Positions 13,998-32,830 of a stretch of DNA of 41,736 nt are shown piece after piece. Numbering within the stretch: the stretch's first letter is position 1; each line of letters opens with the position of its first letter. This DNA is from a virus (taxonomy: Duplodnaviria; Heunggongvirae; Uroviricota; Caudoviricetes), in the IMG/VR virus record IMGVR_UViG_2529292910_000010, positions 1 through 41,736 of that record; one strand, 5' to 3'. The position numbers and the translations under genes are program-made. The notes below the pieces were generated by a model, which was given only the letters and a program-made list of their open reading frames with translations, was not told the origin of the DNA and did no database searches.

Positions 13998-16737
<2,740 letters not shown>

Positions 16738-16741
<4 letters not shown>

Positions 16742-17148
16742 GCTGTCAGGCGGTTCCCGTCGAGAATACTGGCAATTTCACCTGCGATCCGCGACAGCAC
16801 GAAAGTACAGAATGCGGTTTCCACCACTTCAGCTGAGTCTCTGGCATTCTTCAGTTCCTGTGCGTCGGCCTGCGCACGCGTAAGTCGATGGCGTTCGTAC
16901 TCAATAGTCCCTGGCTGGAGATCTGTCTCGCTGGCCTGCCGCAGTTCTTCAACTTCCCGGCGCAGCTTTTCGTTCTCAATTTCAGCATCCCTTTCGGCAT
17001 ACCATTTTATAACGGCGGCAGAGTCATAAAGCACCTCATTACCCTTGCCACCGCCTCGCAGAACGGGCATTCCCTGCTCCTGCCAGTTCTGAATGGTACG
17101 GATACTCGCACCGAAAATGTCAGCCAGCTGCTTTTTGTTGACTTCCAT
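16738..17148 (-). CDS. nu1: terminase small subunit Nu1, truncated (136 aa, altered C-terminus)
   Basis: MEVNKKQLADIFGASIRTIQNWQEQGMPVLRGGGKGNEVLYDSAAV... matches lambda Nu1 up to ...IASILDG, then NRLTA-stop instead of the remaining ~47 residues. Confidence 0.85.
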
Positions 17149-17149
17149 T

Positions 17150-17340
17150 GTTCATTCCACGGCCCAAAACAGAGAAAGGAAACGACAGAGGCCCAAAAGT
17201 TCGTTTTCAGCACCTGTCGCTTCCTTTCTTTTCAGGGGGTATTTTAAATAAAAACATTAAGTTACGACGAAGAAGAACGGAAACGCCTTAAACCGGAAAA
17301 TTTTCATAAATAGCGAAAACCCGCGAGGTCGCCGCCCCGT
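17150..17340 (-). other. cos site (cosB region plus cosN GGGCGGCGACCT at 17326-17337)
   Basis: reverse complement reads GGGGCGGCGACCTCGCGGGTTTTCGCTATTTATGAAAATTTTCCGGTTTAAGGCGTTTCCGTTCTTCTTCGTCGTAACTTAATG..., matching the lambda left end/cos as recalled. Confidence 0.85.
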
Positions 17341-17543
17341 AACCGGTCGGATCGCCGGAAAGGACCCACGAAATGATAATGATTATCATCTATATAAGGT
17401 TTATCACAACATGTGTGTACGCCATCAAACCACGAGAAATAATCAATTATGACGCAGGTATCGTATTAATTGATCTGCGTCAAATTAACGTAAAAGCAAC
17501 TTCTGATAATACAAATCAGCAACACTGAATATGGGGAAACATT

Positions 17544-17729
17544 ATGTCATCAAAGAACAGAACGCGCAGAACAACAACCCGCAACATCCGATTTCCAAAC
17601 CAGATGATTGAACAAATTAACATCGCTCTTGATCTGAAAGGTTCAGGAAACTTTTCAGCGTGGGTTATTGAAGCCTGCAGAAGAAGGCTGTCAACAGAGA
17701 GTTCGGGTATGAATTACATAATTAAGTAA
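17544..17729 (+). CDS. small ribbon-helix-helix-like DNA-binding protein
   Basis: 61-aa ORF with basic N-terminus (NRTRRTTTRNIRF) followed by PNQMIEQINIALDLKGSGNFSAWVIEACRRRL; SD-like gggga upstream; sits in AT-rich island. Confidence 0.4.
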   Translation: MSSKNRTRRTTTRNIRFPNQMIEQINIALDLKGSGNFSAWVIEACRRRLSTESSGMNYIIK

Positions 17730-18352
17730 CATGGTGTTCACAGAACACGCAGTTACCGGACACATCAGTTTTCCATTCGCTCCCTGGCAGTACAGGCTTC
17801 CCCTCTGACGGGATAGCCTGAAAAAATAACACAGAAAATTATTTGTTATAATTAATATAACTTACTCAAAAAAAAGCGACGAGAAAATCAGCATCAACGA
17901 ACAATAAGCGCCAATACGTGATAACAAATGGCAGCCATATTTATCTGCAGTATAAGCAATGGACAGGATAACCACACCAGAAACCGTCAGCATAAAATCC
18001 ATTTGAACTTCCCCGGACAAAATCGACTCATCTAAAGATTTACAGCTCTTTTTATTATCAATATGTTAAAAGTAAAATAAACAGATGTTCAATAACACGA
18101 ATACAAAAACGTGCTGAAATTCAATGAATCCATTTCTGTGTCATCAATTAATAGTGATAAACATCCGGCTTCTTCCACCATCGCACCGGACAGGCGACTA
18201 TGAGGGGACAACGCCGCGCTCCGTTAACGCGGTAAACCCCGGTGTGTATCGTTTTTGATTATCCCCGCACACTCGCGCAGAGGAGTCTCCCTGTCGGGCT
18301 GCGGTCTCTGTTAATGCGGGGATACGGCGACAATACCGCGCATCAGCAAAAC

Positions 18353-18820
18353 TTATTTCAGGCACTGAGTGCGGATATAGTCCTGTGCCCCTTCCAGTTG
18401 CTTCTGCATCGTCATCAGCCGCTCTCTGAGGGTGAAATAATCCCGTGTAACGGTGTCTGCCAGTTGGGGGCCGGTTGCATTATCCACGCGGGCGGTGCCG
18501 GTGGCTTCACGCACGGGACCTGGACAGGTGGCGTTGATCCGCAGGCTGCGGTGACCAGCGGCAACGTCAGCGCGAAGAGTTTCATTTTCAGCTCTCGCAT
18601 CGGCTAATTCCCTCGAGTATCTGGCATCAAGTGCAGCAACATCACGCTGGCGCTGCTGCATATCAGTAATGGTTGCATTTGCCAGCTCCAGCTCACTGAC
18701 TTTTTTATCGCGCTGCTCTTTGTAGGTTATGGCGTTATCACGGTAATGATTCAGCCCCAGACTAAGCGCACCACAGGCCACCAGCAGGGCAATGATGACC
18801 ACGCACAGTACGCGGTTCAT
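18353..18820 (-). CDS. Rz: i-spanin Rz
   Basis: 155 aa, N-terminal TM helix then coiled-coil periplasmic domain. Confidence 0.85.
   Translation of the reverse strand: MNRVLCVVIIALLVACGALSLGLNHYRDNAITYKEQRDKKVSELELANATITDMQQRQRDVAALDARYSRELADARAENETLRADVAAGHRSLRINATCPGPVREATGTARVDNATGPQLADTVTRDYFTLRERLMTMQKQLEGAQDYIRTQCLK
18415..18600 (-). CDS. Rz1: o-spanin Rz1 (lipoprotein embedded in Rz in another frame)
   Basis: 61 aa with signal peptide and lipobox LVTAAC, Pro-rich mature part, fully inside Rz. Confidence 0.75.
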   Translation of the reverse strand: MRELKMKLFALTLPLVTAACGSTPPVQVPCVKPPAPPAWIMQPAPNWQTPLHGIISPSESG

Positions 18821-18999
18821 TTCACCACCAGCGTATCTGACCGATGAAATAACCGGAGGCCATAATCACAAACACCAGCCAGATAAGAATGAACTTCCAG
18901 GTGGATAATTTTTCAGCCATCACTCGAATCTCCCGAATCAGTTTGCTAAAATCAAACACACTTTCTCCTTTGACTTTTCCAGAGTCAGGAAACACAAAA

Positions 19000-19031
19000 C
19001 CCCGCTTGCAGCCAACAAACGGGGTTTTTAC
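19000..19031. terminator. hairpin with T-runs on both strands between endolysin and Rz
   Basis: 9-bp stem ccccgcttg/caaacgggg (one mismatch), 7-nt loop, tttttactttt downstream on plus strand and U-rich flank on minus. Confidence 0.5.
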
Positions 19032-19118
19032 TTTTATTCACTTAGTTTTTGTCAGTTCGCAGGATTTCGTGTTATCCGCCCGCGTGGCCATACCTTATTT
19101 TTCAGCAAAATATTCTGC

Positions 19119-19652
19119 TTATCTGTCGATACCCCAGCACGCCAGCGCGCTCTCCTGGTCACGACGGGATACCTGACCGTAGCAGTTGTTTGAACGAATA
19201 CGGCAGTCTCTGCCACCGTCCTTAATCCACCAGCGAATCGCCTCACACGCTCCCCTGCGATCACCTGCATTAATTCGTTTATAAAACGTCGACGGAAAAC
19301 ACTTACCGGGGCCAATGTTGTACGGACAGAATGACGCGATCCCCGCTTTCTGGGGTTCACTCAATGGCACTCTGATGTTTTTCTCCACCCATGCCAGCGC
19401 CTTATCACGCTCAATGGCGTTAACCCGGTCGCATTTTTCCTTCGACAACTTCATGCCCGGGACGACAGGTTTACTATCCACCAGGATGGCACCGCGGCAG
19501 ATGGTCCAGATACCCGCGCCATCACGGTATGCCGTGGTGTGGTTACCTTCCTTTTCATCCAGAAACTGGTCGAGGATTTCAGGCGCAGGCGCACCTGCGG
19601 CAATCAGCGCCAGAACGGCAGCCGACAGGCCGTATTTGATTTTGGTGTTCAT
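19119..19652 (-). CDS. R: SAR endolysin (lysozyme R, phage 21 type)
   Basis: 177 aa; N-terminal signal-anchor-release segment KYGLSAAVLALIAAGA then lysozyme-like domain. Confidence 0.9.
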   Translation of the reverse strand: MNTKIKYGLSAAVLALIAAGAPAPEILDQFLDEKEGNHTTAYRDGAGIWTICRGAILVDSKPVVPGMKLSKEKCDRVNAIERDKALAWVEKNIRVPLSEPQKAGIASFCPYNIGPGKCFPSTFYKRINAGDRRGACEAIRWWIKDGGRDCRIRSNNCYGQVSRRDQESALACWGIDR

Positions 19653-22929: not shown

Positions 22930-23378
22930 GAATCCTCCCGGCCTGGATAATATTGTGAGTAAAATGAGGAGCGGGCTGAAGTCCGGAAGTTACAGGACAA
23001 TGGCAGAAGATAGACAACAGCCCGCAATACGAAAAAGGCCGCGCTATTGCGCAGAGTGATTACTGTCGGATATTATTCGCCAGCTGAAATATTACTTCAC
23101 GTTTTGTTGTTTATTCCTTGCCGCCCGCGTCTCCCTGCGCGGGCTTTTTTTGTCCATAAGAAAGCCCCTCCGGAGAGGGGCTGGAGAGTGGCACTATGTG
23201 CCATTGCATGGTGCCGGGTGCCTCCCGGTGAATTCAGTACCAGCACCTGAATCCGCGATTATCCCATATACCTACTCGCTGATTGCCCCTCCGCACAGGG
23301 GGATTCACCATGCCAGTTTCTTTTAACAAACTCCCCGCAAACCAGACAACAGTCAACCGCCTGAATTGTGAGACATTT

Positions 23379-23417: not shown

Positions 23418-23494
23418 TGGCGCGTTCTACTGTATTCGAACCAGTGACCGATTGCTTAGAAGGCAATTGCTCTGTCCGGCTGAGCTAACAACGC
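23418..23494 (-). tRNA. tRNA-Arg (anticodon UCU)
   Basis: reverse complement GCGTTGTTAGCTCAGCCGGACAGAGCAATTGCCTTCTAAGCAATCGGTCACTGGTTCGAATCCAGTAGAACGCGCCA; cloverleaf with anticodon loop CTTCTAA, T-loop TTCGAAT, encoded CCA. Confidence 0.85.
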
Positions 23495-23508
23495 AGGATA
23501 CAGATAAT

Positions 23509-31688: not shown

Positions 31689-32830
31689 TTGCGCCCCCTT
31701 ACCTCTGAAGGGTTCAGCGACAAATTTATGAGACTGGCCAGTAGCGCCGCGTCGTTGATGCGGTCATACAGACTTACAGCCAGCGGGGATTCGGCTTTTG
31801 CCAACATGGGATAAAGCTGCTGCAGCCAGACCTGATGAATTGATGAAATGTAGGAATAGAGAACGCTGGCGTTATGTGCAACGTCGCTCAGTACAGAGGG
31901 ATTTGAAAGCTGTTTCTCCATCTGGTTAAAGGCATTGATGTATGCCTCTTTGAACCGGGCAGCACGTTTCCCCGTGAAGCCCATGGCAAGAAACGCAAAA
32001 CCGTCGCGGGTGATTTGGTAACAAGGGAGTTTGCGGCCTGTGCAATCGGTGTAATCACTGGGCTGAAAATTCAGCTCAGTGAATTCAACAGAGCACTCAA
32101 GCGTCTGGATTTTTTGAATAACGTTTTTGTGCTGCTTGCAGAAATATTCGGCAACGGCCAAAGAAGAGGTAACAGCCTTCCCATGGATAACATCAATTTT
32201 AGGGTGAGTTTGGGTAGGGGTGGTTGCCATAGTGACATCCTCATGTGCGAATTTTGAAAACTCACCACATGGGACGCCAATCACAGAGGTGGTGAGACGT
32301 ACAGGGTTGGCGTAACCGGTCGCACATGACCCCGGCGCATCTTTCGATGCCCCTGCACGCCCCACCATAATTTGGATGTGAGGAAACGTGCGCAAAAAAA
32401 CCGCTGAAGCGCGGTTATGCGCATGTGCGAATTTCAGGACGCCAATCCCGGCACCCGCTTTATAAGGTGCCTGAACAGTGTAACGTCCCGGAATTGCAGA
32501 ATCAATATGCTGGTGGTCCTTCACACTCAACAAAATCACGCCTGAATTTCCACAAAGGACTAAAGCACTCATGCGGGTAGTCTTTGCGAAGATAGATAAC
32601 GCGCTGTGTTTCTGGCTCCCAACGAATAACATGGACATAAAGCCCTCTTCCGTCACGAAACCAGCGGTTAAGTTCCTGCACAACTCGCCCCCCACAGTCA
32701 GGTAAAGTTCTCTGTGGTTACTTACAGCCAGGTGATTTGGTAATCTGCATTCATGCCGTAACAACAGGTGTTCAGCGACGCTGACCACCAGCTGTTGCGA
32801 CAAACGGTTATTTGCCGTTAAACTATTCAT
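31685..32830 (-). CDS. Rha-family phage regulatory protein with an unusual ~200-aa N-terminal extension
   Basis: residues ~201-300 (MATTPTQTHPKIDVIHGKAVTSSLAVAEYFCKQHKNVIQKI...YQITRDGFAFLAMGFTGKRAARFKEAYINAFNQMEKQL) look like the Rha domain; frame is open for 200 more codons upstream and the ATG at 32830 overlaps the upstream stop (ATGA). Confidence 0.6.
   Translation of the reverse strand: MNSLTANNRLSQQLVVSVAEHLLLRHECRLPNHLAVSNHRELYLTVGGELCRNLTAGFVTEEGFMSMLFVGSQKHSALSIFAKTTRMSALVLCGNSGVILLSVKDHQHIDSAIPGRYTVQAPYKAGAGIGVLKFAHAHNRASAVFLRTFPHIQIMVGRAGASKDAPGSCATGYANPVRLTTSVIGVPCGEFSKFAHEDVTMATTPTQTHPKIDVIHGKAVTSSLAVAEYFCKQHKNVIQKIQTLECSVEFTELNFQPSDYTDCTGRKLPCYQITRDGFAFLAMGFTGKRAARFKEAYINAFNQMEKQLSNPSVLSDVAHNASVLYSYISSIHQVWLQQLYPMLAKAESPLAVSLYDRINDAALLASLINLSLNPSEVRGRK

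What the first reader, a model, noticed from the sequence alone, without database searches (positions are those of the whole stretch)
17350..18352. AT-rich island between cos and Rz carrying an RHH-type gene and a small hydrophobic ORF on the opposite strand
A 61-aa plus-strand ORF with a basic N-terminus and ribbon-helix-helix-like core (17544..17729) lies ~130 bp from a 46-codon minus-strand ORF encoding a hydrophobic peptide (17862..18002, MDFMLTVSGVVILSIAYTADKYGCHLLSRIGAYCSLMLIFSSLFFE, SD ggaag upstream). A small DNA-binding protein next to a small membrane peptide is reminiscent of toxin-antitoxin or regulator-effector modules, but both calls are weak.
Basis: inference. Interest (0 to 1): 0.45.

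Follow-up and report, generated by a model that had tools for sequence, protein, structure and literature searches.

The report
Cargo slot beside lambda-type cos
The AT-rich island at the right end of this defective lambda-like prophage holds a well-conserved small DNA-binding gene (ylcI family), an unrelated swappable E. coli-only mini-gene for a hydrophobic peptide, and a conserved folded RNA; the two genes are not a toxin-antitoxin pair.

Summary
The 61-aa ORF (17544..17729 +) is a clear DUF3950 / YlcI-YnfO family member. It is under strong purifying selection (omega 0.05) and has an unannotated counterpart beside cos in phage lambda itself. Several weak but concordant lines support a ribbon-helix-helix fold. 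The 46-aa hydrophobic ORF (17862..18002 -) is an E. coli-restricted ORFan with moderate evidence of being a real gene (omega 0.25-0.31; frame kept in 71-74% identical alleles). It lies in a variable cargo slot that starts inside the 3' end of ylcI. In other prophages that slot holds a TonB_C lipoprotein, a DUF1398 protein or nothing. ylcI occurs far more widely than the peptide (155 versus 2 phage records), and the peptide occurs without ylcI on two contigs. The genes are convergent and neither matches any TA or defence family, so the toxin-antitoxin / regulator-effector reading is not supported. The unexpected find is the GC-rich 185 nt next to Rz (18162..18346). It is a three-hairpin RNA structure on the late-transcript strand, supported by covariation. 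It is present in about 76% of complete E. coli genomes and in lambda, and it is absent from Rfam.

The parts
17326..17337 (-). cosN 12-nt cohesive-end sequence (GGGCGGCGACCT on the minus strand). The mature right end of the phage chromosome is at 17338.
   Evidence: Read directly from the sequence. Window 17338 onward aligns with the right end of lambda (L007 position 1 = lambda 48502). That this 12-mer is the lambda cohesive end is established knowledge.
17361..17367 (+). cosQ-like heptamer AGGACCC (GGGTCCT on the phage forward strand)
   Evidence: It aligns with lambda 48473-48479. The identification as cosQ rests on my recollection of the Feiss laboratory's mapping and was not tested here.
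17373..17389 (.). Perfect 8-1-8 palindrome ATGATAAT-G-ATTATCAT, conserved in lambda and DLP12. Role unknown (a cos-associated site or an operator).
   Evidence: unique in the window; 0.01 matches expected by chance. It is absent upstream of ylcI in HNH-type prophages.
17544..17729 (+). ylcI/ynfO-family gene (DUF3950), 61 aa. Conserved RHH-like core is residues 1-49; the lineage-specific tail is residues 50-61.
   Evidence: Pfam PF13132 E 9e-19. NCBIfam NF041551 35.2 bits against a cut-off of 30. phrog_949 E 9e-32. Omega 0.05, with 19 of 21 differences at third codon positions. RefSeq WP_001329960.1. Fold evidence.
17691..18161 (.). Variable AT-rich cargo segment. It starts inside ylcI just after codon 49 and ends at the conserved RNA element.
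   Evidence: In DLP12 and L003, ylcI is followed by the element after 43-57 bp; here the gap is 428 bp. The YlcI tail co-varies with the cargo class. Alternative cargo is a TonB_C lipoprotein or a DUF1398 protein.
17862..18002 (-). 46-aa hydrophobic ORF (MDFMLTVSGVVILSIAYTADKYGCHLLSRIGAYCSLMLIFSSLFFE) with two hydrophobic segments. It is an E. coli-only ORFan oriented with the late operon.
   Evidence: RefSeq WP_000347013.1. Only E. coli relatives were found, even with a profile. Present in 734 of 5426 genomes. Omega 0.25-0.31. Synonymous excess P 0.002, or 0.02-0.08 allowing for transition bias. No family hit in Pfam, NCBIfam, PHROGs or PADLOC.
18162..18346 (-). Conserved ~185-nt structured RNA element in the sense of the late transcript. 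Long bipartite hairpin at 18246..18336, variable middle hairpin at about 18214..18232, and a third hairpin at 18164..18190 with the conserved loop GGAAGAA.
   Evidence: Present in 4145 of 5426 E. coli genomes and 398 phage records including lambda and Salmonella phage SPN3UB. 98.6% of cells paired, against 35-57% when the partners are slid. 164 G.U cells against 4 A.C cells, so 98.6% canonical pairs on the minus strand and 87.3% on the plus strand. 9 of 31 pairs have double changes in the divergent alignment. No Rfam hit.

Best explanation
The island is the right-end accessory region of a lambda-like prophage. It is built from three independent modules, not a two-gene system.

(1) ylcI. This is a cos-proximal, strongly conserved gene transcribed away from cos and antisense to the late operon. 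It most likely encodes a dimeric Arc/CopG-like ribbon-helix-helix DNA-binding regulator made in the lysogen (inferred).

(2) A recombinational cargo slot. It begins right after the RHH core of ylcI. In this lineage it carries a 46-aa ORFan oriented with the late operon and with no convincing promoter of its own. The ORFan is therefore most likely translated from the Q-dependent late transcript after Rz/Rz1, giving a small inner-membrane peptide (inferred).

(3) A conserved three-hairpin RNA structure in the late transcript. It bounds the slot on the Rz side and most likely acts in cis on that long transcript, in processing or stability (inferred).

The only plausible coupling between ylcI and the peptide is indirect. 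No terminator separates the convergent genes, so ylcI transcription would run antisense over the peptide ORF, as reported for the ybcW-ylcI excludon of K-12.
For: Shown:
- ylcI family membership and strong constraint.
- ylcI lies next to cos in lambda (48127..48303 complement, unannotated), in DLP12 and in Stx phages, and beside three different packaging modules.
- ylcI is transcribed and overlaps its convergent neighbour in K-12 (PMC12288877).
- Slot architecture and alternative cargo, with the junction directly after RRRL at residue 49.
- The peptide is separable from ylcI: 155 versus 2 phage records, and the peptide occurs without ylcI in L256 and L257.
- Peptide coding signal.
- No terminator-like site on the plus strand between ylcI and Rz, and no promoter-like site upstream of the peptide on the minus strand.
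- RNA structure.
Against: - There is no direct evidence that YlcI binds DNA. The palindrome I considered as its operator is missing from HNH-type contexts.
- The peptide's length is not beyond chance and its hydrophobicity is partly compositional. Only one deep allelic split exists, so the omega test has little power. One allele is frameshifted (L059).
- The simple promoter scan can miss real promoters.
- MFE z-scores for the RNA are not significant.
- The YlcI tail co-varies perfectly with the cargo. That could mean a functional link rather than mere linkage.
Confidence: 0.6

Rival explanations
1. One reading: the RHH protein and the hydrophobic peptide form a toxin-antitoxin or dedicated regulator-effector pair. 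The peptide is a membrane toxin or effector, and YlcI represses or neutralises it.
For: - The peptide is small and hydrophobic like type I toxins.
- Within peptide-bearing loci that have ylcI, the YlcI C-terminal tail is specific to that cargo.
- Convergent transcription could supply an antisense RNA.
Against: - ylcI is present in far more phages and genomes than the peptide.
- The same slot carries TonB_C, DUF1398 or nothing.
- The peptide occurs without ylcI within 1.5 kb in L256 and L257.
- The genes lie on opposite strands, not in an operon.
- Neither protein hits PADLOC, and the peptide hits no Pfam, NCBIfam or PHROG family.
- The tail-cargo co-variation is what a recombination junction after codon 49 would give without any functional link.
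Confidence: 0.06
2. The hydrophobic ORF is not a gene. It is a chance open frame on the T-rich strand of an AT-rich spacer, and the 428-bp insert is non-coding (a remnant, a regulatory spacer or an unrecognised RNA).
For: - 43% of shuffles give an ORF at least this long, and chance ORFs on this strand are already hydrophobic (mean GRAVY 0.61).
- The ORF is no better conserved than its flanks between the window and L004 (about 81% versus 80-85%).
- Differences fall 8/6/10 by codon position, which is only weakly periodic.
- The Shine-Dalgarno-like sequence is weak and altered in L004.
- There is no homologue outside E. coli.
- A poly-T tract makes the 3' end unstable, and one allele is frameshifted.
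- The peptide was not found in the Sakai translatome supplements.
Against: - The frame stays open in alleles that are 71-74% identical at the protein level, with conservative hydrophobic substitutions and an invariant central LLSRIGAYC.
- Omega is 0.25-0.31 in the deep comparisons and 0.10 within a clade. In most comparisons it is the lowest of the six frames.
- Synonymous excess P = 0.002.
- The module is kept intact in three different packaging backgrounds.
- PGAP calls it.
Confidence: 0.3
3. The conserved GC-rich segment is not an RNA element. It is conserved boundary DNA, either a recombination linker between modules or the promoter/5' region of bor/iss, and its apparent structure is incidental.
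For: - It sits at module junctions, with different flanks on both sides.
- In lambda, DLP12 and ColV plasmids it lies 130-180 bp upstream of bor/iss.
- MFE z-scores are unremarkable.
- Only a few pairs show double changes among E. coli copies.
Against: - The wobble asymmetry is strand-specific: 164 G.U cells against 4 A.C cells across 13 variable pairs. A DNA site or the plus-strand bor leader would not produce that.
- Salmonella phage SPN3UB keeps helices 2 and 5 through five double changes.
- The middle hairpin is replaced by unrelated sequences that still form a hairpin.
- The element is retained here and in many prophages that have no bor at all.
Confidence: 0.15

Closest known systems
YlcI (DLP12) / YnfO (Qin) of E. 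coli K-12; Pfam DUF3950, NCBIfam NF041551, phrog_949
   Same: Same family by curated cut-offs. It has the conserved IRFP...NFSAWV.EAC core and the same position next to the Nu1/nohD-type small terminase gene across cos.
   Different: The C-terminal tail (STESSGMNYIIK) is lineage-specific and linked to the peptide cargo. The family has no experimentally assigned function.
Arc / Mnt / CopG ribbon-helix-helix repressors and RHH antitoxin DNA-binding domains (TacA, CopA_SO, ParD)
   Same: A basic N-terminal arm, then a strand motif N-I-R-F-P aligned with Arc N-L-R-W-P, then helix, G-turn and helix. The top structural neighbours are all RHH proteins.
   Different: No match is statistically significant. 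Dimerisation and DNA binding were not shown. No cognate toxin or defined operator was found.
Lambda morons / accessory genes at the right end (bor, lambdap78 = DUF1398/ybcV, lambdap79/ybcW)
   Same: Same genomic slot between Rz and cos. Composition is AT-rich and presence is variable among relatives.
   Different: The cargo here is a 46-aa ORFan. No promoter or terminator of its own was detected, and it is oriented with the late operon, unlike bor.
Type I toxins (Hok, TisB, Ldr, Ibs, ZorO)
   Same: A small hydrophobic peptide in a prophage, with possible antisense transcription from a convergent gene.
   Different: It has two hydrophobic segments and no charged tail. There is no family match, no dedicated antisense sRNA and no evidence of toxicity. 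The comparison with those toxins' features is from my own knowledge.
ybcW-ylcI convergent excludon of E. coli K-12
   Same: ylcI converges on a small late-strand gene in the same slot, and overlapping transcripts were reported from RNA-seq (PMC12288877).
   Different: The neighbour here is an unrelated ORF, and there are no transcript data for this prophage.
Cis-acting phage RNA structures (RNase III sites such as lambda sib; HK022 put)
   Same: Multi-hairpin structure inside a long phage transcript, with conserved unpaired stretches. This is a resemblance from my own knowledge.
   Different: Different location (after the lysis genes), no sequence relationship, no Rfam family and no functional data.

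Membership tests
DUF3950 / YlcI-YnfO family | Pfam PF13132 match above the gathering score | tested here: met
   67.5 bits against a cut-off of 25, E 9e-19, residues 21-49. All 15 members of alignment A3 match.
DUF3950 / YlcI-YnfO family | NCBIfam NF041551 match above the curated cut-off | tested here: met
   35.2 bits against a cut-off of 30. RefSeq names the identical protein 'YlcI/YnfO family protein'.
DUF3950 / YlcI-YnfO family | Synteny: next to cos and the small terminase gene, transcribed away from it | tested here: met
   Seen in the window, L001, L002 (DLP12), L004 and lambda, and also next to HNH plus TerS in L003, L005 and L254. Not met in Xenorhabdus homologues.
Ribbon-helix-helix (Arc/MetJ/CopG) superfamily | Strand-helix-helix topology of about 45 residues | tested here: inconclusive
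   The AF2 monomer model has an extended segment at 14-18 and helices at 19-32 and 37-54, with pLDDT 68. The strand would form only in a dimer, which could not be modelled.
Ribbon-helix-helix (Arc/MetJ/CopG) superfamily | Significant sequence or structure similarity to a solved RHH protein | tested here: inconclusive
Ribbon-helix-helix (Arc/MetJ/CopG) superfamily | Dimerisation and operator DNA binding | not testable with these tools
   Needs biochemistry. The candidate palindrome at 17373..17389 is not consistently associated with ylcI.
Type II toxin-antitoxin module | Antitoxin and toxin adjacent on the same strand in one operon | tested here: not met
   ylcI is on the plus strand and the peptide on the minus strand. 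They are convergent, 132 bp apart.
Type II toxin-antitoxin module | The two genes co-occur across relatives | tested here: not met
   155 phage records for ylcI against 2 for the peptide. Other cargo or none in the slot. Peptide without ylcI in L256 and L257.
Type II toxin-antitoxin module | Match of either partner to a known TA or defence family | tested here: not met
   No PADLOC hits. Only a weak HicB-like RHH hit, E 0.012.
Type I toxin-antitoxin module | Small hydrophobic toxin ORF | tested here: met
   46 aa, GRAVY 1.11, two hydrophobic segments. The hydrophobicity is partly compositional.
Type I toxin-antitoxin module | Dedicated antisense sRNA, and toxicity on overexpression | not testable with these tools
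   No sRNA family was found. Read-through from ylcI is only inferred.
Phage moron / accessory cargo | Variable presence at a fixed slot among related phages, with deviant base composition | tested here: met
Phage moron / accessory cargo | Own promoter and terminator | tested here: inconclusive
   The consensus scan finds none for the peptide ORF, but the scan is crude.
Known RNA family (Rfam 15) | Covariance-model match for the 18162..18346 element | tested here: not met
   Nothing relevant at E up to 1 in 16500-19500, and nothing at gathering score there.

The most novel reading that the evidence does not exclude
The GC-rich 185 nt between the cargo slot and Rz (18162..18346, minus strand; about 46868-47033 in phage lambda) is a previously undescribed, functional three-hairpin RNA motif of lambdoid late transcripts. 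It is conserved from E. coli and Shigella phages to a Salmonella phage. It acts in cis, for example as a processing or stability element that separates the lysis-gene message from the long untranslated cargo/cos stretch, or it controls the late-strand cargo downstream, such as the 46-aa peptide that travels with it.
Probability: 0.45. Interest if true: 0.55.

Novelty: new member of a known kind. Interest (0 to 1): 0.33.

Why it matters
For the finding as written, little changes. It is an annotated family gene plus an ORFan in a known accessory region, and it is not a new TA system.

Three by-products may be useful:
- Phage lambda's reference record lacks an annotation for a strongly constrained ylcI-family gene 200 bp from its right end. 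By established knowledge of lambda, that is the end of the DNA that enters the cell first.
- The ylcI core ends exactly at a recombination junction, which defines a cargo slot that can be mined for small accessory genes.
- A widespread, covariation-supported RNA structure in the late transcript of lambda-like phages, including Stx phages, has no Rfam family and no known role.

Tried and rejected
- Rfam at permissive E-values across 16500-19500 gave only chance hits (rimP, mir-192, PVT1_3).
- PADLOC gave nothing for either protein.
- Pfam, NCBIfam and PHROGs gave nothing for the peptide.
- PDB sequence and profile searches for YlcI gave nothing.
- TGATAAT palindrome as the YlcI operator: it is conserved beside lambda-type cos but missing from HNH-type ylcI upstream regions, and the copy near the start codon is not conserved. 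I dropped it as evidence.
- Element as a protein-coding region: the 55-aa minus-strand ORF and a 10-codon mini-ORF are broken by indels or start loss in lambda-type and L132-type copies.
- Element as an intrinsic terminator: no U-tract follows any hairpin.
- Element as a Pas, STnc100 or AgvB-type sRNA: those map near Q and the holin gene.
- The Sakai translatome supplements do not contain the peptide sequence.
- A literature search for lambda ribosome-profiling evidence of the ylcI-like ORF found nothing usable.
- Many 'distant' ylcI representatives and genome hits turned out to be lambda control-DNA contamination or noisy reads, and I excluded them from alignments.

Full report
**Context.** The window is a lambda-like prophage of E. 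coli read in reverse. Nu1 (16738..17148 -, Pfam Phage_Nu1 E 1e-81) and Rz (18353..18820 -, Phage_lysis E 6e-48) flank the region. The reverse complement of 17326..17337 is GGGCGGCGACCT, the lambda cohesive end. Window 17338 onward aligns with the extreme right end of lambda. So the finding covers the last ~1 kb of the phage chromosome, between cos and the lysis genes. GC falls to 0.37-0.43 there, against 0.55-0.59 on either side.

**The 61-aa ORF is a solid gene.**
- It matches Pfam DUF3950 (E 9e-19, 67.5 bits against a cut-off of 25), NCBIfam YlcI_YnfO_N (35.2 against 30) and phrog_949 (E 9e-32).
- Against the 86%-identical copy in strain SHP24, 19 of 21 differences in the core are at third codon positions and omega is 0.05.
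- tblastn finds it in 155 phage records. One is lambda itself, at 48127..48303 on the complement strand, where the reference record has no annotation.
- In Escherichia prophages it always lies just inside the right end and is transcribed away from cos. This holds whether the packaging module is Nu1/A-type or HNH plus TerS/TerL-type.
- One distant member is fused to a Terminase_2 N-terminal region. Xenorhabdus homologues instead sit beside an AntA antirepressor and a D5-type primase.
- The family is small: 106 representatives among 1.84 billion proteins.

**Is it ribbon-helix-helix?** No single test is significant, but all point the same way.
- The AF2 model (15-sequence alignment, pLDDT 68) has an extended segment followed by helices 19-32 and 37-54.
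- All 22 Foldseek hits are RHH or RHH-like proteins (ParD2, NikR, Arc, TCP domain), with E at least 3.
- hhalign puts YlcI 11-33 on Arc 8-30 in the expected register, N-I-R-F-P on N-L-R-W-P (E 0.011, probability 3.7%).
- PHROGs gives a weak hit to the RHH part of HicB-like antitoxins.
- I put the RHH assignment at about 0.8. DNA binding is inferred.
- A K-12 RNA-seq analysis lists ybcW-ylcI as a convergent excludon. So the K-12 orthologue is transcribed in a lysogen and overlaps its convergent neighbour (PMC12288877).

**The 46-aa ORF is probably real, but it is an ORFan.**
- It hits no family in Pfam, NCBIfam, PHROGs or PADLOC.
- Searches of 5.8 billion proteins, with the single sequence and with a profile, return only 13-16 E. 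coli clusters.
- tblastn finds it in only 2 of 50,697 phage records. Its DNA is in 734 of 5426 complete E. coli genomes.
- Length alone is not significant: 43% of shuffles give an ORF at least this long. Part of the hydrophobicity is compositional, because chance ORFs on this T-rich strand average GRAVY 0.61. The joint probability is 2.4%.
- In favour of a gene, alleles that are 71-74% identical keep the frame, make conservative hydrophobic substitutions and preserve an invariant LLSRIGAYC centre.
- Omega is 0.25-0.31 across the deep split and 0.10 within a clade. In most comparisons it is the lowest of the six frames.
- Of 33 inferred changes, 16 are synonymous against 24% expected (P 0.002, or 0.02-0.08 if transition bias is allowed for).
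- Against a gene, the ORF is no better conserved than its flanks. A poly-T tract makes the C-terminus variable, and one allele is frameshifted.
- I put the probability of a real gene at about 0.65.

**Architecture and the TA question.** Surveying about 130 ylcI loci shows a fixed frame with a variable middle.
- In DLP12 and L003, ylcI is followed after 43-57 bp by a conserved GC-rich segment. Here 428 bp of AT-rich DNA carrying the peptide ORF is interposed.
- Other prophages carry about 600-650 bp with a TonB_C lipoprotein gene. Others carry a DUF1398 (ybcV-like) gene, and lambda has lambdap78 (DUF1398) plus lambdap79.
- The junction lies inside ylcI. All proteins share residues 1-49, up to RRRL. 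The tail after that co-varies perfectly with the cargo class.
- The peptide module is found beside Nu1/A-type and HNH-type packaging genes. In L256 and L257 it lies directly upstream of a third terminase type, with no ylcI within 1.5 kb.
- So ylcI and the peptide are separable in both directions, they lie on opposite strands, and they hit no TA or defence model. The toxin-antitoxin or dedicated regulator-effector reading is not supported (confidence about 0.06).
- What remains possible is indirect coupling. There is no terminator-like site on the plus strand after ylcI and no promoter-like site in front of the peptide ORF. The likeliest picture is that the peptide is read from the Q-dependent late transcript after Rz/Rz1, and that ylcI transcription in the lysogen runs antisense across it. 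Both steps are inferred.

**The conserved GC-rich segment (18162..18346).** This part of the finding's interval turned out to be the most interesting.
- Distribution: it occurs in 4145 of 5426 E. coli genomes, with up to 11 copies per genome. It occurs in 398 phage records including lambda, Stx phages, Shigella phages and Salmonella phage SPN3UB. It also occurs next to iss on ColV-type plasmids, as part of a lambda-derived fragment.
- Not coding: candidate ORFs are broken in other lineages.
- Fold: on the minus strand, which is the sense of the late transcript, 51 distinct copies fold into a long bipartite hairpin (window 18246..18336), a variable middle hairpin and a third hairpin (18164..18190) with a conserved GGAAGAA loop.
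- Pairing: 98.6% of cells are paired, against 35-57% when partners are slid by 1-3 columns. No shuffle out of 500 reaches the observed pairing or covariation score.
- Strand asymmetry: variants are overwhelmingly G.U (164 cells in 13 variable pairs) rather than A.C (4 cells). The same helices would be only 87% paired on the plus strand. That asymmetry is what selection on an RNA of the minus strand predicts.
- Covariation: adding divergent copies, 9 of 31 pairs show changes on both sides with pairing kept. In SPN3UB, helix 2 goes from CCCC/GGGG to CAUC/AAUG with one mismatch. Helix 5 changes three pairs. The middle hairpin is replaced by unrelated sequences that still form a hairpin.
- Caveats: MFE z-scores are not significant, and no promoter or terminator of its own is visible.
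- Prior description: Rfam 15 has no match. The recently described Pas and STnc100 prophage sRNAs map elsewhere.
- I put the probability that it is a real RNA structure at about 0.85. Its function is unknown. My best guess is a cis-acting processing or stability element in the long untranslated stretch between the lysis genes and Nu1.

**Verdict.** The RHH idea is reasonable. The module interpretation is wrong. The island is an ordinary accessory region at the right end of a lambdoid prophage. It contains a known-family gene of unknown function, a swappable ORFan and an unrecognised conserved RNA structure. Interest in the finding as stated is low to moderate. The RNA element and the unannotated lambda ylcI homologue are the parts worth following up.

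Noticed in passing
window 18162..18346 (-); lambda NC_001416 about 46868-47033 (+): Conserved three-hairpin RNA structure on the late-transcript strand. It is present in about 76% of complete E. coli genomes and in 398 phage records, is supported by covariation and a 164:4 G.U to A.C asymmetry, and has no Rfam family.
   Followed up: yes
L007 200..391 (= lambda NC_001416 48112..48303, complement): Phage lambda's reference record has no annotation for its own ylcI/DUF3950 homologue (64 aa, 81% identical to the window's protein), which lies 200 bp from the right cohesive end.
   Followed up: partly
window 15779..17148 (-): The prophage is packaging-defective. The Nu1 ORF stops at 136 aa (Pfam model positions 1-133 of 164). 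The next ORF (320 aa, GTG start) contains only the GpA nuclease domain. This indicates a roughly 1.1-kb deletion that removes the Nu1 C-terminus and the terminase ATPase domain.
   Followed up: partly
window about 17297: The window is 100% identical to prophage L001 (NZ_CP018991.1) from 17297 rightwards, but has no megablast match to it leftwards. This points to a mosaic junction inside cos, between the cohesive end and cosB/Nu1.
   Followed up: partly
window 17373..17389: Perfect 8-1-8 palindrome ATGATAAT-G-ATTATCAT, 6 bp from the cosQ-like heptamer AGGACCC (17361..17367). It is conserved in lambda and DLP12, unique in the window, and absent from HNH-type ylcI upstream regions. Its role is unknown.
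   Followed up: partly
window 17691..17729 and loci L002-L249: The C-terminal tail of YlcI, after RRRL at residue 49, co-varies perfectly with the downstream cargo class (peptide, TonB_C, DUF1398 or none). The recombination junction therefore lies inside the gene, immediately after the RHH core.
   Followed up: yes
L010-L049 (genome-contig hits): About 30 assemblies of unrelated organisms (Streptomyces, Cohnella, Flavobacterium, Shewanella, MAGs and others) contain contigs 99.6-100% identical to the right end of lambda. One is a 3,566-bp 'plasmid unnamed1' of Arcanobacterium hippocoleae (CP136411.1). Most are about 3.5 kb or 48.4 kb, the sizes expected for sequencing control DNA. Many 'divergent' DUF3950 proteins in the big protein libraries are error-laden reads of this DNA.
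   Followed up: yes
L253 (NZ_CP047003.1 plasmid pTEM, 27910-31004): The right half of the RNA element lies upstream of iss on a ColV-type plasmid, next to Rz/Rz1 remnants. The iss locus therefore carried part of the lambdoid element with it.
   Followed up: partly
window 23152..23342, 23421..23667, 32285..32372, 32394..32470 (all -): Rfam gathering-score hits elsewhere in the prophage: STnc100 sRNA, three tRNA genes, C4 antisense RNA and isrK.
   Followed up: no
L112 3333..3674 (-): In some prophages the same cargo slot carries a 113-aa lipoprotein-like ORF with a TonB C-terminal domain (Pfam TonB_C E 1e-14), on the late strand like the peptide.
   Followed up: partly
P0206 (129 aa, from the representative search): A distant DUF3950 protein continues into a Terminase_2 (small terminase) N-terminal region. 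This is either a true fusion or a read-through of adjacent co-oriented genes, and it hints at a link between this family and packaging modules.
   Followed up: no
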